NCBI GenBank assembly: GCA_028279725.1
Contig: JANQNE010000011.1
Location: forward strand, 25,872-89,871
Direction: 5' to 3'
Origin: Candidatus Nanoarchaeia archaeon
Lineage (GTDB): Archaea > Nanobdellota > Nanobdellia > Woesearchaeales > JANQNE01
Length of the DNA: 64,000 nucleotides
Shown here: one piece after another, positions 8,315-59,936 of the stretch
Layout: each line of letters begins with the position of its first letter
How positions within the stretch are numbered: position 1 is the stretch's first letter
Program-made: the position numbers and the translations under genes
The notes under the pieces: model-generated
What the model was told of the DNA's origin: nothing
The model's database searches: none
The model's input: the letters and a program-made list of their open reading frames with translations, nothing else

Positions 8315-9194
8315 AGTTGATCCACTCCCATTGTTTTGTCTCTTCTAAATTCCAAAGTTTCTTCCAGCCTGAATCACCCGACATAAAATCAATCTTTTTT
8401 GCTTTTAATTTTATTGCATTCTTTATATGTTCTGCTATAAGAAGCTTTCCTAAGTTCTTGATATCTGTGTTTGTTCCTCCGTCAAGGACATAGTAGACGT
8501 TATTGTAGAATATGGCTATTTCAGCAGCTTCTGTCTTGTTGCTGATCTTTATCGATAACATGTGAAGCATATCTTTTTCTTTTGCTGTTTCAACAAGTTT
8601 TTTCATGCTTTCTTCAAATCCATCCTGAAGATAGTTTGAATCTTCCCTAAATCTTTGTTTGTTAAGCTCTACAAGTGTCTTAAAGTCGTCTATGTTGTTC
8701 CATACTGTGCTGTAGTTCAGCTCTTCAAGATGCCTTAGGTCATATTTTATGTTTTTTCTGTGTTTTTTGCTGAAAGATGCAAAATAAGAGTCTATATCTG
8801 GAAAGTCCTCTATATTTAGTGAGAAGGATACATCGCATTCTTTTGGATCAGGAAAATATTCTTTCTCAGAATCATCTATGTATTCTATATTCATGTCTTC
8901 TGGGAATGAGTTAAGGAAATCTTTGATATGTTCTTTGTTTTTTATGAAGAATCTCCTTCTTTCAGGATAGTTTCCACCAAAGAATGCATGGAAATCATTA
9001 TCTCCTTCGTACTGTAATGGGAGCAGACCTATCTCTTTTCCTTCCTGGTAACCTACTACGAAAAAGAACTGATTAATCTTTGGATTGAAGAAGCAATGGT
9101 TGAACTCCCAAAGATCCCATAGTATCTCTTTTGGGCTGTATTTATCCCAAAGCTTCTTACAGTCTTCAAGTTTTGTGAAGGATTTAAATTCCAT
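8301..9194 (-). CDS. FemAB/CelD-like GNAT-fold protein (putative aminoacyl/acyl transferase), paralog A
   Basis: C-terminal region YYVLDGGTNTDIKNLGKLLIAEHIKNAIKLKAKKIDFMSGDSGWKKLW aligns with the C-termini of the two downstream paralogs (YY..G...LG......K..F.GS) and has the FemAB/CelD/BioF2-like (Acetyltransf_6-type) pattern. Function is inferred. Confidence 0.5.
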   Translation of the reverse strand: MEFKSFTKLEDCKKLWDKYSPKEILWDLWEFNHCFFNPKINQFFFVVGYQEGKEIGLLPLQYEGDNDFHAFFGGNYPERRRFFIKNKEHIKDFLNSFPEDMNIEYIDDSEKEYFPDPKECDVSFSLNIEDFPDIDSYFASFSKKHRKNIKYDLRHLEELNYSTVWNNIDDFKTLVELNKQRFREDSNYLQDGFEESMKKLVETAKEKDMLHMLSIKISNKTEAAEIAIFYNNVYYVLDGGTNTDIKNLGKLLIAEHIKNAIKLKAKKIDFMSGDSGWKKLWNLEETKQWEWINFEPE

Positions 9195-10107
9195 CCTTGT
9201 TTTTCCTCATTATCGAGAAAGTATATGTGTTGTATGTGCTTACTGGTTTAAATTTGTTCTTAAATTCAAGCAGGTCATCATCTGAACCGCCGAAATTGGC
9301 TTTATCGAAGCCCATCTTCTTTATCTCTATGAGGTCATATAGGTTTGTTATCTCTCCGAGTCCTTCAAATTTGTAGTTAAGCACACCTATGCCTGAATAA
9401 TATGTATTTGTGTTTGGAACTCTCCATCCTGCTGTTATCGAGCATGGAATTCCATCAACTATCAGTGTTTTTGCCATGTCACAGCCTGCGAAATCTGAAT
9501 CAACCATCCTAAAATAGCATTCTTTATAGGCAAAATCTTCTGCTCCTCTTTTATCTATCCAGTCTGTGATGATTTTCTTTAGTTCTTCTTTTGGAAGATC
9601 CAATGAATCTATTAGTTCAACTTTATGTTCTTCAAGGAATCTGTTCTTTATATTTCTTATCTTCTTCCATTTCTTTCCTTCAAGCTTATCTCCATCCCAT
9701 GTTTTCATATCATACATCGGCCATTCAAGCCTAAAGTTAAGCTGTCCTGATCTGAAGTCTGTGTTTTCAAGTTTTTCTTTCAGTTCTTTCCTGAATTTCT
9801 TGTCAACTTCTATCTGAAGCCTGTTAGCTTCGTCTTTGTTGAAAACATGATCTACAAACTTCATGAATGTTTCAAATTTCTCTTCTTTTGGAGCAAGGAC
9901 TTCAGATATCATATACCAAAGCTTGCCTGTCTTTGATTTTTGTGCAAGAACACCTTTGCTGTTATCAAAGCCTACAAATATAGGCATCTTTGCGCTTGTT
10001 GTCTGGTTCATATAGTGATGATAGTTATGTTCAGCATCATGGCCATGTATTTCAACAGCTTTTATTGCTTTTTCTTCAAATTCTTTCTTATCTGTCAATA
10101 CTTCCAA
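9184..10107 (-). CDS. FemAB-like GNAT-fold protein, paralog B
   Basis: Shares long identical motifs with paralog C: VLAPKE, GKKWKKIRNIKNRF, GCDM, ITAGWRVPNTNTYYSGIG, FGGSDDD. 307 aa. Confidence 0.5.
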   Translation of the reverse strand: MEVLTDKKEFEEKAIKAVEIHGHDAEHNYHHYMNQTTSAKMPIFVGFDNSKGVLAQKSKTGKLWYMISEVLAPKEEKFETFMKFVDHVFNKDEANRLQIEVDKKFRKELKEKLENTDFRSGQLNFRLEWPMYDMKTWDGDKLEGKKWKKIRNIKNRFLEEHKVELIDSLDLPKEELKKIITDWIDKRGAEDFAYKECYFRMVDSDFAGCDMAKTLIVDGIPCSITAGWRVPNTNTYYSGIGVLNYKFEGLGEITNLYDLIEIKKMGFDKANFGGSDDDLLEFKNKFKPVSTYNTYTFSIMRKNKDGI

Positions 10108-10119
10108 ACAAAAACACCC

Positions 10120-11034
10120 CTATTTCTTTGAGATTTTGAAAAAATAATACTTTTCCATACTATGTGGATTAAATTTCAGCTTGAAATTTAATAAGTTTTT
10201 CTTTTCAGAGCCTCCAAAATCGACAAAATCATATTTTTTTTCTTTTAACTGCTTTAGATCATCCACGTAAGCAACTTCTCCAAGTCCTTTGTGTTTGTAA
10301 TTGTGGATTCCTATGGATGAATAGTATGTGTTTGTATTGGGAATTCTCCATCCTGCTGTTATTGCACATGGTTCATCATTAACATAGATTATTCTTGTCA
10401 TATCACATCCTTTGAAGTCGTTCTCTACAAAGTTGAGGAATGTAGGGGCCCATGCTTTTGCTACAGTGCTTTTTCTTGTCTTTTCCCAGTCTTCGATTAC
10501 TTTTTTTATCAGTTCTTTGTCTTCTTTTTTGTATTCTTTTATCTCTATTCTGTTTTCATTGAAGAATGTGTTTTTGATGTTTCTTATCTTCTTCCAGTCT
10601 TTTCCTGGCAAAGAAGAGTCAAAATCATTCATATTGAATACTGGAGAGTCAAAGATCCTTGAAGGTTTATGGATGTTGTACTTTTCCTGGCTGATCTTGT
10701 TAAGAAATTTTCTTCTGAACTCTTTTTCTAATGTTAGGAATATCTTGTCTGATGATCTTAATGAATGTTCTATGAAGTTCAGCAGAAGGTCTAATTGTTT
10801 TTCTTTTGGAGCTAAAACATCTGAGATGATCTCATATTCATTATCATCTTCATAGTAAAGGGCGAAGACTCCATATTTTTCTTCAAAGATGAAGAAAGTC
10901 GGTATAACTCCTTCTTCTTTCATGTTATAATAATACCAGAAATTGTGTTCAGACATATTACCATAGCTGGAGATAAGCTGTTCAATAAGTTCCTTGCTTT
11001 CTAATATATTATTTATGACCCTCACGTTGATCAA
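10120..11034 (-). CDS. FemAB-like GNAT-fold protein, paralog C
   Basis: Tandem paralog of 9184-10107 (VLAPKE, GKDWKKIRNIKNTF, GCDM, ITAGWRIPNTNTYYSSIG, FGGSEKK). 304 aa. Confidence 0.5.
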   Translation of the reverse strand: MINVRVINNILESKELIEQLISSYGNMSEHNFWYYYNMKEEGVIPTFFIFEEKYGVFALYYEDDNEYEIISDVLAPKEKQLDLLLNFIEHSLRSSDKIFLTLEKEFRRKFLNKISQEKYNIHKPSRIFDSPVFNMNDFDSSLPGKDWKKIRNIKNTFFNENRIEIKEYKKEDKELIKKVIEDWEKTRKSTVAKAWAPTFLNFVENDFKGCDMTRIIYVNDEPCAITAGWRIPNTNTYYSSIGIHNYKHKGLGEVAYVDDLKQLKEKKYDFVDFGGSEKKNLLNFKLKFNPHSMEKYYFFKISKK

Positions 11035-11070: not shown

Positions 11071-11163
11071 TGTATAACACGCTACGTTCTATTCTGGAAT
11101 GGATCTGTTTCAGATTCTAGTATTTTTATAACTCTGTCCGAGAACTTCGCTTGGTGTTATGCA
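11071..11163 (+). repeat. Copy 1 of a ~94-nt structured hairpin element (candidate ncRNA family)
   Basis: Terminal inverted repeat tgtataacac/gtgttatgca (10 bp, one G-U). Conserved internal GCTACGT..., CAGATTCTAG and ...ACTTCGCTTG shared with the copies at 48763-48857 and 59005-59097; inner 4-bp helix GTTC/GAAC. Confidence 0.55.
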
Positions 11164-12215: not shown

Positions 12216-12866
12216 TTAGCACTGCACCCCTGTAGAAAACAACAACACACCATCTTTTTTTTGTTTTAGGTAAAAAAACATTCGGTTTATCACCAGTTTT
12301 TTATTTTTTTTATTTGTTAATGCAATTATATACTTTTTTATTTATAAATGTTATGTTTTTTGTTATTTTTTTAGAAATTTTTCTATAAAAAAGTTTTTTT
12401 AGTCTTATTCTTTTGTTTTTTATTTTGTTTTTTATCGTCGAGAAAATAACTTTTTTATGTTTTTGCTTTATTTTTTTACTTAATCTTGTTTTTTTGTTAG
12501 TTTTTGTAAAAAATTGCAAAAAAAGAAATTTTTAGTTTACTTTTTTTGGTAAAAATTTTTGTTTTATTTTTATCGTCGATAAAAAGTTTAGGAATTTTTT
12601 AGAAAAAATTTATTTTTTTAATTTTTGTTTAATTTTTTAGATTTTGTGATTATTTTTTCATCTTTTATTTTCTTTTTATTTTTTTCAAAGAATAGTTTGA
12701 TTTTACTTATTGGATGTTGTTTTTTTGTTTGATTTCTGATGATTAGAAAACATTGGGTTTTCTAGCGTTTATTTGCTAAACTTTCAGAAAAAATTATACA
12801 TTATCAGAAAAGTTTATAAAGAGATTTAGGATATATTTCGCTATAAAACCAAAAAGGGGTATTACT
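12216..12866. other. 650-bp T-rich low-complexity divergent intergenic region with repeated TTTTATCGTCGA(G/T)AAAA motif
   Basis: Non-coding (the only ORF is a K-rich artefact). tatcgtcgagaaaa at 12433-12446 and tatcgtcgataaaaa at 12571-12585. Separates the minus-strand Ddl/Fem operon from the plus-strand retropepsin/RimK/AsnB operon. Confidence 0.5.
12813..12820 (+). promoter_or_regulatory. Putative archaeal TATA box for the 12867-16424 operon
   Basis: tttataaa lies ~50 bp upstream of the ATG at 12867, with an aaaggggt RBS at -14 to -7; positional inference only. Confidence 0.25.
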
Positions 12867-14311: not shown

Positions 14312-14342
14312 CTTTTTAAATAGAGAGTTCTTGTTTTGTCCT

Positions 14343-16424
14343 ATGTGTGGGATTATAGGGATATTTAACCATAAGGATGCTAAGAAGCTAGCTAAGAAGG
14401 GGCTGTCTAAGATATTATACAGGGGAAAGGACAGTAATGGCCTCTTTAGTTCTGAGAATTGCTGTATCGGACATTGCCTGCATTCTGTAGTTAATTTTGT
14501 TGAACAGCCTTTCAAAGGAAAAGGTGTGCTGATCGTAAATTGCGAGCTGTATAATTGGGAAGAGCTTAACGATAAATATAAGTTTAAGGCAAGGAATGAT
14601 TCTGAATTACTTTTTATGTTGTTGGAGAAGAAAGGAGTTTCAAAGATCAAAGAGATATTAGATGAGCTGGATGGTGTTTATTCTTTCTGCTATTGGATTG
14701 ATGATAAAGTTTATGTTGCGAGAGATATAATCGGTGTAAAGCCATTATGGTTCTCTAAGTATGAGCATCTTGGTTTTGCTTCTGAGAAAAAGGCATTGAA
14801 AGAGATAGGAATGTTTGATGCTGAGGAACTAAATCCCAGGAAGATATTAGTTTATGATGTGAAGAAGAATAAGGTTGAATTTATCGAGAGGGATTTTTTA
14901 AAGATAACACCTGAATTGAAGTGTAAATATGAAAAGATAAAGAAAGAGCTGACTGGGCTTGTTGTTAATTCTATCTCTAAAAGGATACCTGATCAGAAGT
15001 TTGGGATATTGTTTTCCGGAGGGATTGACTCTGGTCTGATCGCACATGCATGTAAAGAATTAGGTGTTGATTTTACATGCTATACTGCTGCTTTGAAAGA
15101 AAAAGGGATGGGAGAAGCAGAAGATATGGTCTATGCTAAGAAAGTTGCTGATAAATTAGGATTCAGGCTAAAGACAAAGACAATTTCTCTTAAAGAAACT
15201 GAAAAGTATCTGAAAAAAGTAGTTCCTTTGATAGAAGATTCCAATGTTGTTAAAGTTGGAGTGGGATTGACTTTCTATGTTGCATGTGAGATGGCTAAGA
15301 AAGATGGGATCAAAGTTATATTTTCCGGACTTGGATCTGAGGAGCTGTTTGCCGGCTATGAAAGGCATAGGAAAAGTGATCTGATAAACAAAGAATGCCT
15401 TTCTGGAGTCATTAAGATATATGAAAGGGATCTTTATAGGGATGATGTTATTGCGATGGCAAACAATCTTGAGCTTAGGCTTCCTTTTCTGGATAAGAAG
15501 CTTACTAGTTATGCACTGAAGATTCCTGCTAAATACAAGATAAAAGATGGGTTGACTAAAGTTGTTCTCCGTGATGTTGCTGTTGGTCTTGGTTATGATA
15601 AAGAATTTGCATCTAGAAGGAAGAAAGCTGCGCAGTATGGAAGCAAGTTTGACAGAGCGATAGCTAAACTTGCTAAGAGAAAAGGATTTAACCTTAAATC
15701 AGAATATTTGAGGACCTTTTATCCGGAAGTTAATCTTAAGCTAGGTGTGTTGTTCAGTTCTGGGAAAGACAGCTGCTATGCGATGCATGTTATGAAAAGA
15801 CAGAATTATGAGATAAGCTGCCTGATAACATTAAAGAGCAAAAATAAAGATTCTTATATGTTTCATACGCCTGCTATCGAGCTTGCTGAAGTGCAGGCGA
15901 AGGCGATGGAATTACCTATAATAGAACAGGAGACTGCAGGTGTTAAGGAAAAAGAGCTTGCTGATCTGAAGAAGGCATTAGCTGCTGCAAAGAAAGAGCA
16001 TAAGATAGAAGGTGTTGTGACCGGAGCATTATTTTCTAAATATCAGCGTGAAAGGATAGAGAAGGTTGCTGATAGTCTTGGGTTAAAGATATTTTCTCCT
16101 TTGTGGCATATGGATCAGGAGACTGAGCTTAAAAGTTTGGTGAGAGAAGGATTTGATGTTATTATCAGCTCTATAGCTGGTTATGGCATGGAAACAAAAG
16201 ATATAGGAAAGAGGATTGATGATAAGATGATCTCGAAATTGAGAAGGTTAAAAGATAAGATCGGGTTTAATGTAGCTGGAGAAGGCGGAGAGTTTGAGAG
16301 CTTTGTCCTTGATGGGCCTATGTTTAAGAAGAGATTGGAGATTGTTGATAGCCAGAGAGCTATAGAGAATGAATGTACTGGCAGGATGCTGATCAAGAAG
16401 ATTAAATTAGTCGACAAGAAATAG
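14343..16424 (+). CDS. Fusion: glutamine-dependent asparagine-synthetase-like amidotransferase (Ntn-GATase + PP-loop) + Dph6/MJ0570-like ATP pyrophosphatase domain
   Basis: MCGIIGI (Cys1 nucleophile), LYRGKD, NCELYNW, NDSELLF and RDIIGVKPLWF match AsnB N-domain motifs. SGGIDSG is the AsnB PP-loop. A second PP-loop FSSGKDSCYAMHVM and EGGEFESF (cf. EGGEYET) match the diphthine-ammonia-ligase family. The ORF-track start at 14331 is a TTG; the ATG at 14343 puts Cys at position 2. Confidence 0.7.
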   Translation: MCGIIGIFNHKDAKKLAKKGLSKILYRGKDSNGLFSSENCCIGHCLHSVVNFVEQPFKGKGVLIVNCELYNWEELNDKYKFKARNDSELLFMLLEKKGVSKIKEILDELDGVYSFCYWIDDKVYVARDIIGVKPLWFSKYEHLGFASEKKALKEIGMFDAEELNPRKILVYDVKKNKVEFIERDFLKITPELKCKYEKIKKELTGLVVNSISKRIPDQKFGILFSGGIDSGLIAHACKELGVDFTCYTAALKEKGMGEAEDMVYAKKVADKLGFRLKTKTISLKETEKYLKKVVPLIEDSNVVKVGVGLTFYVACEMAKKDGIKVIFSGLGSEELFAGYERHRKSDLINKECLSGVIKIYERDLYRDDVIAMANNLELRLPFLDKKLTSYALKIPAKYKIKDGLTKVVLRDVAVGLGYDKEFASRRKKAAQYGSKFDRAIAKLAKRKGFNLKSEYLRTFYPEVNLKLGVLFSSGKDSCYAMHVMKRQNYEISCLITLKSKNKDSYMFHTPAIELAEVQAKAMELPIIEQETAGVKEKELADLKKALAAAKKEHKIEGVVTGALFSKYQRERIEKVADSLGLKIFSPLWHMDQETELKSLVREGFDVIISSIAGYGMETKDIGKRIDDKMISKLRRLKDKIGFNVAGEGGEFESFVLDGPMFKKRLEIVDSQRAIENECTGRMLIKKIKLVDKK

Positions 16425-47676: not shown

Positions 47677-47826
47677 ATGGAGATACCTGATGACTGGAAT
47701 GAAGAAAATGAAGATACCATCTATTCAGAGGATGGAAGAGAAAGTTTAGTAGATAGTGAAGCTATGACACCAGAAGAAGCTGCATTTATGCAGGGTTATA
47801 GTGAAGCTGAAGAAGAGCTTGAATAA
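47677..47826 (+). CDS. Small acidic protein (49 aa), member of a 4-gene tandem paralog family (not in ORF track)
   Basis: MEIPDDWNEENEDTIYSEDGRESLVDSEAMTPEEAAFMQGYSEAEEELE; RBS aaggaggg 6 nt upstream; shares YSEDGRE..D...M..EEA.FMQGY with the next ORF. Confidence 0.5.
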   Translation: MEIPDDWNEENEDTIYSEDGRESLVDSEAMTPEEAAFMQGYSEAEEELE

Positions 47827-47942: not shown

Positions 47943-48092
47943 ATGAAAATAATAAAATCAAATTGGATAGATGAGTTAGAGGGTGAGAACTTAAGCGTTT
48001 ATTCTGAAGACGGCAGAGATATGCTTGTAGACGATGATGAGATGACATTAGAGGAAGCTGGCTTTATGCAAGGCTGGGATGAAGCAGGTTAA
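47943..48092 (+). CDS. Small acidic protein (49 aa), paralog 2
   Basis: MKIIKSNWIDELEGENLSVYSEDGRDMLVDDDEMTLEEAGFMQGWDEAG; RBS ggggtgggg upstream. Confidence 0.5.
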   Translation: MKIIKSNWIDELEGENLSVYSEDGRDMLVDDDEMTLEEAGFMQGWDEAG

Positions 48093-48585: not shown

Positions 48586-48759
48586 ATGAGAGATGATTAT
48601 AAGGAAGAGATTGAGGAAGAGAATGTATATAGTGAAGGCGGTAGAGAGAGCAATCTAGATGATGATGAGATATCGGGCAGTGAAGAAGCATTTATGCGTG
48701 GATATGATGATGCTGAAGAGTATGATGACGGAGATTACTCTGAAAGCGAAGAAGAATAA
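48586..48759 (+). CDS. Small acidic protein (57 aa), paralog 4
   Basis: MRDDYKEEIEEENVYSEGGRESNLDDDEISGSEEAFMRGYDDAEEYDDGDYSESEEE; same YSE(D/G)GRE...EEAFM(Q/R)GY core as ORFs 1 and 2; RBS cagagggtg upstream. Confidence 0.5.
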   Translation: MRDDYKEEIEEENVYSEGGRESNLDDDEISGSEEAFMRGYDDAEEYDDGDYSESEEE

Positions 48760-48762
48760 GAG

Positions 48763-48857
48763 TGCATATTGCGCTACGTACTAATTCTGTTTTTTGACTG
48801 ATTTCAGATTCCAGTGTCATAGATATTTACCTGAGTACTTCGCTTGCCAATATGCAC
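48763..48857 (+). repeat. Copy 2 of the ~94-nt structured hairpin element
   Basis: Perfect 10-bp terminal inverted repeat GTGCATATTG/CAATATGCAC enclosing CGCTACGTAC...TTTCAGATTCCAG...GAGTACTTCGCTTG; inner helix GTAC/GTAC. Confidence 0.55.
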
Positions 48858-48904
48858 CAGAATAAACAAAAGATTTATTAAATAAATAACTAATTCTTTT
48901 AAAT

Positions 48905-58969: not shown

Positions 58970-59004
58970 TATACTGGTATACGTTTTTGTATATTATGTT
59001 GATG

Positions 59005-59097
59005 GTATAGCACGCTTTGTCTGCTTCTGAAATGGCTGGAGAAGCAGATTTTAGTCAATACAGAAGCTGTATCTGAAGACTGCGCTTGGTGCTATAC
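59005..59097 (+). repeat. Copy 3 of the ~94-nt structured hairpin element
   Basis: 9-bp terminal inverted repeat GTATAGCAC/GTGCTATAC enclosing GCTTTGTCT...AGCAGATTTTAG...GAAGACTGCGCTTG; inner helix GTCT/AGAC. Confidence 0.5.
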
Positions 59098-59163
59098 TTT
59101 ATATCCGAAATATTTAAATAAAGAATCGAGATTTCTATCGCTACAAATAACAAGAGTGATAAC

Positions 59164-59834: not shown

Positions 59835-59936
59835 GGGCCTATAGTCTAATGGATAGAACAACCGGCTTCGGTAAGTGGGGTCAAAAGCTTCGCTTGTGGG
59901 TACCGGTTAGTGGGGGTTCGAATCCTCCTAGGCCCA
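59835..59936 (+). tRNA. tRNA-Arg (anticodon TCG) with a 30-nt intron at the canonical 37/38 position
   Basis: Acceptor GGGCCTA/TAGGCCC, T-arm GGGGG-TTCGAAT-CCTCC, anticodon stem ACCGG/CCGGT, loop C-T-TCG-G with U33 and G37. A 30-nt insert TAAGTGGGGTCAAAAGCTTCGCTTGTGGGT lies between G37 and A38. CCA is not encoded. Confidence 0.8.

What the first reader, a model, noticed from the sequence alone, without database searches (positions are those of the whole stretch)
48763..48857. Three-copy family of ~94-nt hairpin elements with conserved internal motifs and fully covarying terminal stems: candidate novel structured ncRNA (not MITE-like)
Copies at 11071-11163, 48763-48857 and 59005-59097 (all intergenic, same orientation on the + strand) share the architecture [9-10-bp outer stem]-(C)GCT(A/T)(C/T)-[4-bp inner helix strand]-~55 nt containing CAGATTYYAG-[inner helix partner]-(T)(T/G)CGCTTG-[outer stem partner]. 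The outer stems are entirely different in sequence but perfectly complementary within each copy (tgtataacac/gtgttatgca; GTGCATATTG/CAATATGCAC; GTATAGCAC/GTGCTATAC). The inner 4-bp helix also covaries (GTTC/GAAC, GTAC/GTAC, GTCT/AGAC). Compensatory change in two helices while the loop strands stay conserved is the classic signature of a selected RNA structure. A transposable MITE would have conserved TIRs instead. The asymmetric internal loop next to a 4-bp helix, and the 9-nt string CTTCGCTTG shared with the 3' end of the tRNA-Arg intron (59888-59897), make me suspect a bulge-helix-bulge-like processing motif, for example excised or circular RNAs made by the tRNA splicing endonuclease. That is speculative.
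Basis: seen in the sequence. Interest (0 to 1): 0.72.

Follow-up and report, generated by a model that had tools for sequence, protein, structure and literature searches.

The report
Structure-conserved hairpin repeat in DPANN archaeon
A roughly 95-base hairpin-forming element occurs three times in this Woesearchaeota genome piece and in two other sediment contigs; its stems stay paired while their sequence drifts and its loops stay fixed, so it is a real, undescribed structured element, more likely an insertion-derived hairpin repeat than a splicing-type RNA, and its function is unknown.

Summary
Three copies (11071-11163, 48763-48857, 59004-59098, all on the + strand) share one architecture. 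Three more copies lie on two sediment-metagenome contigs. The architecture is a 10-16-bp terminal stem, an invariant UUG bulge, a 2-bp GC helix, a 3x3 loop, a 3-4-bp helix, and a fixed-length interior of 55-60 nt carrying CAGATTYYAGT. Eleven of 16 pairs show changes on both sides, and 96% of cells pair (0 of 500 shuffles reach this). No Rfam family matches. The splicing-endonuclease idea fails: there is only one 3-nt bulge, and the helix next to it is 2 bp, not 4. There is no K-turn, C/D or H/ACA signature. The 9-mer shared with the tRNA-Arg intron lies in a helix there. "Not MITE-like" is not secure. Two hairpins and one foldback are bounded by flush 5-7-bp direct repeats. The family is also patchy: no copies in GTDB representatives or in about 110 kb of related contigs. 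Against recent transposition, termini are not conserved, copies are only 41-71% identical, and all six are intact. My best reading (0.45) is an insertion-derived hairpin repeat read as a folded single strand by an unknown protein. The main rival (0.3) is a small-RNA gene family. The strand, any transcription and the function are all unresolved.

The parts
48760..48858 (+). Copy c2 (the flagged copy): the whole hairpin element. It includes the closing pair G48760:C48858, with A48761 bulged.
   Evidence: Covariance model hit at 85 bits; sequence read.
48762..48771 (+). c2 terminal stem, 5' arm: GTGCATATTG. C48772 faces C48847 as a mismatch.
48848..48857 (+). c2 terminal stem, 3' arm: CAATATGCAC.
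48773..48781 (+). c2 5' strand of the conserved core: GC (2-bp helix), TAC (3x3 loop), GTAC (inner helix).
48805..48815 (+). c2 central conserved motif CAGATTCCAGT. It sits at a fixed distance from both core strands (23-25 nt and 30-32 nt across the copies).
48835..48846 (+). c2 3' strand of the conserved core: GTAC (inner helix), TTC (3x3 loop), GC (2-bp helix), TTG (invariant bulge).
48753..48759 (.). Left copy of the flush direct repeat AGAATAA. It contains the stop codon of ORF 48586-48759.
   Evidence: Under an intergenic null, the chance of a repeat of 7 or more is about 0.005.
48859..48865 (.). Right copy of the flush direct repeat AGAATAA.
11071..11163 (+). Copy c1. Stem TGTATAACAC/GTGTTATGCA with one U:G pair; core at 11081-11089 and 11142-11153; central motif at 11111-11121. 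It lies between two minus-strand genes (a D-Ala-D-Ala-ligase-like gene and an LPG_synthase_C-like gene).
59004..59098 (+). Copy c3. Stem GGTATAGCAC/GTGCTATACT; core at 59014-59022 and 59077-59088; central motif at 59045-59055. It lies between a HAD hydrolase gene and the S17e-Alba genes.

Best explanation
This is a real, undescribed family of self-complementary intergenic elements, about 95-105 nt long, in Woesearchaeota (DPANN archaea).

What is selected is a folded single strand. It has a terminal stem of 10-16 bp whose sequence drifts through compensatory changes. Then come an invariant 3-nt bulge (UUG), a 2-bp G-C helix, a 3x3 loop and a 3-4-bp helix. The interior is 55-60 nt, largely unpaired and of fixed length, and carries CAGAUUYYAGU.

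Most likely the copies are insertion-derived, non-autonomous hairpin repeats. They would work like bacterial REPINs or ERIC elements, or like the MITE-like sRNA modules of Pyrobaculum. In this reading, a trans-acting protein encoded elsewhere reads the conserved unpaired nucleotides on the folded strand (ssDNA or transcript). The stems only have to pair. New copies land in AT-rich spacers at gene ends, with a short target duplication whose boundary is the base of the stem.

Shown: conservation of the fold, the loops and the interior length; flush direct repeats at some copies; a patchy distribution.
Inferred: the protein partner, the single-stranded intermediate, mobility itself, and whether RNA is made and from which strand.
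For: - Six copies are known: three in the window, plus L009 923-1016 and a head-to-head pair on L007 at 126-220 and 232-329.
- 95.8% of cells pair, and 11 of 16 pairs change on both sides. No shuffle out of 500 reaches this, and slid controls reach only 25-53% paired.
- The core loops and short helices are 62-95% identical between copies. The interior is 32-74% identical and the stems 30-80%. Interior length is 55-60 nt in every copy.
- Flush direct repeats sit exactly at the stem base: c2 AGAATAA (7 bp), L007B ATTAGT (6 bp), and the L007 foldback GATTT (5 bp). Under an intergenic null, P(7 or more) = 0.005 and P(6 or more) = 0.011 per site when 9 registers are allowed.
- The distribution is patchy. 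No true hit was found in 185,579 GTDB species representatives. Only two contigs, both from one sample, were found in the metagenome collection. No copy was found in about 110 kb of non-redundant contigs from related Woesearchaeota. These include a relative with 90% proteasome-alpha identity to the window organism.
- The organisms that do carry copies are only about 70% identical in proteasome alpha.
- Copies occur in both orientations relative to flanking genes. The L007 pair is 11 bp apart, head to head.
- Precedents exist. REPINs are hairpins about 100 bp long, with compensatory changes and a length constraint (PMC3116915). Pyrobaculum has MITE-like elements that resemble sRNAs (PMC6009581).
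Against: - Copies are only 41-71% identical, far below typical active MITE or REPIN populations.
- All six copies are structurally intact. No decayed copies appear between 44 and 14 bits. This fits selection acting in place on each copy.
- Four of six hairpins show no direct repeat, and the repeats that exist have different lengths: 5, 6 and 7 bp.
- The terminal bases are not conserved, so no ordinary transposase could recognise them.
- None of the roughly 50 window proteins scanned against Pfam matched a transposase, integrase, HUH or reverse-transcriptase family. About six ORFs at 55.9-64 kb were not scanned.
- No empty site and no presence/absence polymorphism was seen.
Confidence: 0.45

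Rival explanations
1. A family of paralogous small-RNA genes, or RNA elements processed from neighbouring transcripts, that is not mobile. The long terminal stem would protect or define the ends. The bulge, the 3x3 loop and the central single-stranded motif would bind a protein to form an RNP of unknown function.
For: - Covariation includes a U:G pair on the + strand.
- Unpaired nucleotides are conserved across organisms only about 70% identical in a core protein.
- All copies are intact despite deep divergence.
- Interior length is constant.
- Archaeal sRNA genes are typically packed against, or co-transcribed with, protein genes (PMC6009581).
- c1 has a TATA-like TTATATTTAAAT about 25 nt upstream on the + strand.
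Against: - No consistent promoter or oligo-T terminator appears on either strand. c2 has coding sequence directly upstream on the + strand, and c1 has coding sequence directly upstream on the - strand.
- The + strand carries T5-T7 runs inside 4 of 6 copies. By established knowledge these are archaeal termination signals.
- The L007 pair is head to head, 11 bp apart, and lies between the apparent promoters of two divergent genes.
- The distribution is patchy.
- Some copies are bounded by flush direct repeats.
Confidence: 0.3
2. A DNA-level element. It would be a cluster of protein-binding sites, or a cruciform-forming palindrome, placed just upstream of promoters and acting on transcription or chromosome organisation.
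For: - Every copy lies within about 15-50 bp of a TATA-like box of a flanking gene (read by eye).
- The three conserved blocks are spaced by roughly whole helical turns: about 32 bp and 41 bp.
- Stems are almost free of G:U pairs: 1-2 in about 74 pairs.
- All three window copies are on the same strand.
Against: - Double-stranded binding sites do not need the two ends of a copy to be complementary to each other. The strong compensatory pattern needs a folded strand.
- In compact genomes any intergenic element lies near a promoter.
- No partner protein is known.
Confidence: 0.1
3. An ordinary MITE moved by a DDE transposase that recognises terminal inverted repeats.
For: Size, intergenic location, inverted termini, and flush direct repeats at c2 and L007B. 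The L007 foldback has 16-19-bp inverted ends and GATTT on both sides.
Against: - Termini differ between copies, with 30-80% identity and no conserved tips, while the sub-terminal loops are conserved.
- Copies are 41-71% identical.
- Direct-repeat length is not constant.
- No parent IS with these ends was found in the window or the fetched loci.
Confidence: 0.07
4. One reading: RNAs bounded by a bulge-helix-bulge-like motif, which the tRNA splicing endonuclease excises or circularises.
For: The organism has an intron-containing tRNA-Arg, so it has the splicing endonuclease. CTTCGCTTG is shared with that intron. One 3-nt bulge adjoins the terminal stem.
Against: - There is only one 3-nt bulge.
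- The adjoining helix is 2 bp. Extending it to 4 bp gives one or two mismatches in every copy.
- The second unpaired region is a symmetric 3x3 loop, not a bulge on the opposite strand.
- In the intron, the 9-mer pairs with UAAGUGGGG as a helix strand, so the two contexts differ.
Confidence: 0.03

Closest known systems
REPINs (REP doublets forming hairpins) of bacteria, mobilised by RAYT tyrosine transposases (PMC3116915, PMC3337134)
   Same: Both are intergenic elements of about 100 bp that fold into a long hairpin on a single strand. Both show compensatory changes and a length constraint. Both are non-autonomous and occur in either orientation, sometimes in pairs.
   Different: In REPINs the ends (the REP 16-mers, tagged GTAG) are the conserved part and the spacer pairs and varies. 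Here the ends vary and covary, while sub-terminal unpaired nucleotides and a central motif are conserved and the interior is unpaired. No GTAG or CGTC tag is conserved here (GTAG appears on the minus strand in c1 and c2 only). No RAYT was seen. The host is an archaeon. IS200/IS605-type transposition leaves no target duplication.
MITE-like elements resembling C/D box sRNAs in Pyrobaculum calidifontis (PMC6009581)
   Same: Both are archaeal. Both have an sRNA-like core enclosed by inverted repeats, are dispersed and multi-copy, and show only moderate similarity in the internal segments.
   Different: The Pyrobaculum elements have highly conserved flanking inverted repeats and canonical C and D boxes. 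Here there are no C/D boxes and the inverted repeats are not conserved.
ERIC / Rickettsia palindromic elements (old palindromic intergenic repeats; from my own knowledge, not checked here)
   Same: Both are imperfect palindromes of 100-150 bp. Both are co-transcribed with neighbours in either orientation. Both are old, diverged copies that keep hairpin potential.
   Different: ERIC and RPE elements are bacterial, and their consensus sequence is conserved along the whole palindrome. They have no comparable block of invariant unpaired nucleotides.
Integron attC sites (from my own knowledge)
   Same: The logic is the same. A folded single strand is recognised through its structure and a few unpaired or extrahelical bases, while the stem sequence is free to covary. 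The sizes are similar (57-141 nt).
   Different: There is no RYYYAAC/GTTRRRY core and no cassette array. Copies lie among housekeeping genes in mixed orientation. A conserved central motif is present here, and attC recombination makes no target duplication.
Archaeal bulge-helix-bulge introns and processing stems
   Same: Both have a long helix formed by flanking inverted sequences, with a 3-nt bulge next to it.
   Different: The second bulge and the 4-bp central helix are missing here.

Membership tests
Bulge-helix-bulge substrate of the archaeal splicing endonuclease | Two 3-nt bulges on opposite strands | tested here: not met
   The only 3-nt bulge is UUG on the 3' strand. The other unpaired region is a 3x3 internal loop.
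Bulge-helix-bulge substrate of the archaeal splicing endonuclease | Central helix of exactly 4 bp between the bulges | tested here: not met
   The helix is 2 bp (GC/GC, or GU/AC in L007B). Extending it to 4 bp gives U.C plus U.U or U.G mismatches in every copy.
Bulge-helix-bulge substrate of the archaeal splicing endonuclease | Cleavage in the bulges, giving excised or circular RNA | not testable with these tools
   No transcript data were available.
MITE (DDE-type) | Terminal inverted repeats conserved between copies and shared with a parent IS | tested here: not met
   Outer stems are 30-80% identical between copies and their tips are not conserved. No IS with such ends was found in the window or the fetched loci.
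MITE (DDE-type) | Target-site duplication of fixed length at every copy | tested here: inconclusive
   Flush repeats of 7, 6 and 5 bp occur at c2, L007B and the L007 foldback. None occurs at c1, c3, L009 or L007A.
MITE (DDE-type) | Many near-identical copies | tested here: not met
   Pairwise identity is 41-71%.
REP / REPIN | Two inverted short REP palindromes tagged GTAG or CGTC | tested here: not met
   There is no REP-like sub-palindrome. GTAG occurs on the minus strand in c1 and c2 only.
REP / REPIN | Hairpin with compensatory changes and constrained length | tested here: met
REP / REPIN | Cognate RAYT gene in the genome | not testable with these tools
   None of the roughly 50 window proteins scanned against Pfam matched such a family. 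The rest of the genome could not be fetched.
C/D box sRNA | C box RUGAUGA and D box CUGA next to the terminal stem, forming a K-turn | tested here: not met
   The conserved positions next to the stem are GCUWY and UKCGCUUG. CUGA occurs in 2 of 6 copies and at a different place. Rfam C/D models give only noise.
H/ACA sRNA | ACA 3' of the lower stem, a K-turn or K-loop in the upper stem, and variable guide pocket strands | tested here: not met
   No ACA follows the stem. The 'pocket' strands are the conserved part. There is no K-turn.
K-turn (L7Ae site) | A 3-nt bulge followed by tandem sheared G.A pairs | tested here: not met
   On both strands the bulge is followed by two Watson-Crick G-C pairs.
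Integron attC | RYYYAAC / GTTRRRY core sites at the base of the hairpin; a cassette array | tested here: not met
   Stem bases read CAC/GTG or TGC/GCA. Copies are 10-38 kb apart among housekeeping genes.
Any Rfam 15 family | Score at or above the family's gathering threshold | tested here: not met
   The only window hit is the tRNA. E-value scans of c2, c1, L007 and L009 give only unrelated noise.

The most novel reading that the evidence does not exclude
This is a new class of element, in one of two forms. It could be an archaeal mobile element recognised purely as a folded single strand, through a few invariant unpaired nucleotides. That would be attC/REPIN-type logic, but with covarying termini, a short target duplication and an unknown enzyme. 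Or it could be the RNA subunit of an undescribed ribonucleoprotein particle specific to some DPANN archaea.
Probability: 0.3. Interest if true: 0.75.

Novelty: new variant of a known kind. Interest (0 to 1): 0.5.

Why it matters
DPANN archaea are known almost only from metagenomes, and their non-coding repertoire is essentially uncharted. This element has unusually clean evidence of selection on a fold. Its conservation pattern is the reverse of known hairpin repeats: the ends are variable and paired, while the unpaired nucleotides are invariant. If it is mobile, it points to a structure-reading mobilisation enzyme in archaea. If it is an RNA, it defines a new RNP. Either way, the covariance model built here gives a handle for a census and for finding the partner gene by co-occurrence.

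Tried and rejected
- Rfam: a gathering-threshold scan of the window and E-value scans of four copies gave nothing.
- ARAGORN found no tRNA at all, and missed the intron-containing tRNA-Arg.
- Pattern scans. Genome contigs gave 4 chance hits in bacteria. Metagenome contigs gave 2 real and 3 chance hits. Viral contigs gave only chance hits with both the loose and the strict pattern.
- BLAST of c1 against phage and plasmid collections gave no match.
- The source genome could not be extended. Its proteins are not in the contig index.
- Synteny around ArgRS and proteasome-alpha in relatives gave no orthologous spacer and no copy, so no empty site could be examined.
- Insertion into pre-existing palindromes is rejected. 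The stems of different copies are homologous, and the window has few empty perfect palindromes.
- A conserved fold of the interior is rejected. The MFE folds differ between copies, and the one extra RNAalifold helix is broken in a third of cells.
- Small-ORF coding is rejected, because the spacing is not a multiple of 3.
- An IS200/IS605-type conserved target tetranucleotide on either flank is absent.
- A link to ArgRS or tRNA-Arg is rejected. Only c2 and c3 lie near them, and the shared 9-mer is paired in the intron.
- The weak sR3 C/D hit at 48700-48745 is an artefact of GAT/GAA-rich coding sequence.
- The literature searches found no description of this element.

Full report
**1. What is there**

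A gapped pattern built from the shared blocks, CGCTNNGT..CAGATT..CGCTTG, hits exactly these three sites, all on the + strand, with none expected by chance.

MAFFT plus RNAalifold on the three copies already returns three helices. These are a terminal stem, a 2-bp GC/GC helix set off by a 3' UUG bulge, and an inner 4-bp helix beyond a 3x3 loop. Single-sequence folds agree on this, with z-scores of -2.2 to -4.0 on the + strand and similar values on the - strand.

The window belongs to a Woesearchaeota-type DPANN archaeon:
- It has a tRNA with a 30-nt intron.
- Its ArgRS has best named hits in Woesearchaeota, and a 100%-identical protein lies on a 240-kb NCBI contig.
- Its gene content is housekeeping: purine and pyrimidine synthesis, aminoacyl-tRNA synthetases, S17e and Alba.

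**2. More copies**

- A strict 22-position pattern found no true copy in 185,579 GTDB species representatives. The four hits are GC-rich bacterial chance matches with no flanking stem.
- In JGI metagenomes it found two true copies, both from sample Ga0315274: L007 and L009, with perfect stems of 15 and 13 bp that have new sequences.
- A covariance model built from five copies found a sixth, more diverged copy on L007. It sits head to head with the first and 11 bp away.
- It found nothing else in the window, even with filters off: the best other hit scores 11 bits.
- It found nothing in 80 viral loci.
- It found nothing in contigs of related Woesearchaeota fetched around ArgRS and proteasome-alpha homologues, about 110 kb non-redundant.
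- Those contigs include a relative whose proteasome alpha is 90% identical to that of the window organism.
- The window organism and the L007 organism are only about 70% identical in that protein.

**3. Is the structure selected?**

Yes. On the six-copy alignment, 95.8% of cells form standard pairs, against 74% in shuffles (0 of 500 reach the observed value). Eleven of 16 pairs show changes on both sides. Sliding the partner by 1-3 columns drops pairing to 25-53%.

The 2-bp helix is GC/GC in five copies and GU/AC in the sixth.

The stems are homologous between copies: c1/c3 share 15 of 20 positions and L009/L007B share 16 of 20. They drift by compensation rather than being unrelated.

The core (the loops plus the two short helices) is 62-95% identical, while the interior is 32-74% identical. 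Interior length is held at 55-60 nt, and the central CAGATTYYAGT sits 23-25 nt and 30-32 nt from the two core strands. I found no conserved pairing inside the interior.

**4. What it is not**

- No Rfam family matches.
- It is not a bulge-helix-bulge motif. There is one 3-nt bulge only, the adjoining helix is 2 bp, and the other unpaired region is a symmetric 3x3 loop.
- It has no K-turn on either strand. Two G-C pairs follow the bulge, not tandem G.A pairs.
- It has no C/D boxes and no ACA.
- It has no attC core sites.
- The 9-mer shared with the tRNA-Arg intron is real. In the pre-tRNA it pairs with UAAGUGGGG as one strand of the intron helix, whereas in the element it is loop and bulge. I treat the match as probably coincidental.

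**5. RNA gene or inserted repeat?**

Evidence pointing to an inserted repeat:
- At c2, the hairpin (closing pair G48760:C48858) is bounded flush by AGAATAA on both sides. The left copy holds the stop codon of the upstream ORF.
- L007B is bounded by ATTAGT on both sides.
- The whole L007 foldback (91-357) consists of two inverted units inside a 16-19-bp inverted repeat, and is bounded by GATTT on both sides.
- With nine registers allowed and intergenic composition, the chance of a repeat of 7 or more is 0.005, and of 6 or more is 0.011, per site. Two such sites among six hairpins is unlikely (about 0.002).
- The family is patchy and rare (section 2).
- Copies lie in either orientation relative to genes.
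- No consistent promoter or terminator accompanies the copies.
- The L007 pair sits between what look like the promoters of two divergent genes.
- The + strand carries T5-T7 runs inside four of six copies. By established knowledge these terminate archaeal transcription.

Evidence pointing the other way:
- Copies are 41-71% identical.
- All six copies are intact.
- Four hairpins have no flanking repeat.
- The repeat lengths differ.
- The terminal bases are not conserved.
- No mobilisation gene was found among the window proteins scanned.

**6. Strand**

The strand is unresolved. The + strand keeps a U:G pair in c1 that would be an A.C mismatch on the - strand. The - strand has the more RNA-like purine loops (a CAA bulge and a GAA/GAA or GAA/GUA 3x3 loop) and almost no T runs.

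**7. Verdict**

The most likely account (0.45) is an insertion-derived hairpin repeat. A folded single strand would be read through invariant unpaired nucleotides by an unknown protein. It is analogous in working to REPINs (PMC3116915) and to the Pyrobaculum MITE-like sRNA modules (PMC6009581), but it fails the defining tests of both families.

A non-mobile small-RNA family is the main rival (0.3). The splicing-endonuclease reading is not supported.

Six copies are too few to settle function. A census with the model and transcript data are the decisive steps.

Noticed in passing
window 47677-47826, 47943-48092, 48586-48759 (+): Three tandem paralogous acidic ORFs of about 50 aa, 51-56% identical. 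They share YSE[DG]GR...D...E..FM.G[YW]. The one scanned (48586-48759) has no Pfam match. The last one ends 0-2 nt before copy c2.
   Followed up: partly
window 12216-12866: A 650-bp, very T-rich spacer between divergent genes. TTTTATCGTCGA occurs twice, at 12430 and 12568, the second within a palindrome; 0.07 matches are expected by chance. The region also has many AT-rich inverted repeats. It could be a regulatory or origin-like region. No Orc1/Cdc6 gene is adjacent.
   Followed up: partly
window 59835-59936 (+): tRNA-Arg(UCG) with a 30-nt intron. Rfam found it but ARAGORN missed it. The MFE fold of the anticodon arm plus intron does not give a canonical bulge-helix-bulge.
   Followed up: partly
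window about 16.5-37.3 kb: A near-complete set of de novo purine synthesis genes: a PurF-PurD fusion of 889 aa, PurL, PurQ, PurM, a PurC-PurE fusion, PurN, a split PurH, PurB, PurA, GuaA, GuaB and FolD. This is unusual for a DPANN archaeon, a group generally described as lacking nucleotide synthesis (my own knowledge).
   Followed up: no
L007 91-357 (= L134 1425-1691): A 267-bp foldback. Two inverted, roughly 60%-identical units (hairpin plus tail AAAGGGCTTCAG) sit inside the inverted repeat AGCTCTG(CT)GAAGCCCTTT and are flanked by GATTT on both sides. It lies between the divergent Rpp14 and hypA genes.
   Followed up: partly
window 14331-16424 (+): A 697-aa ORF that joins asparagine-synthase-type domains (GATase_7, Asn_synthase) to a Diphthami_syn_2 domain.
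   Followed up: no
window 48700-48745 (+): A weak hit to the archaeal C/D box model sR3 (E = 0.067). The boxes lie inside the acidic coding tail, and the first guide would be 2 nt long. This is a coding-sequence artefact.
   Followed up: yes
window 9184-10107 and 10120-11034 (-): Two adjacent paralogous LPG_synthase_C-like genes, with a 72-nt stretch at 74% identity, next to a GNAT gene and a D-Ala-D-Ala-ligase-like gene. Copy c1 sits inside this cluster.
   Followed up: no
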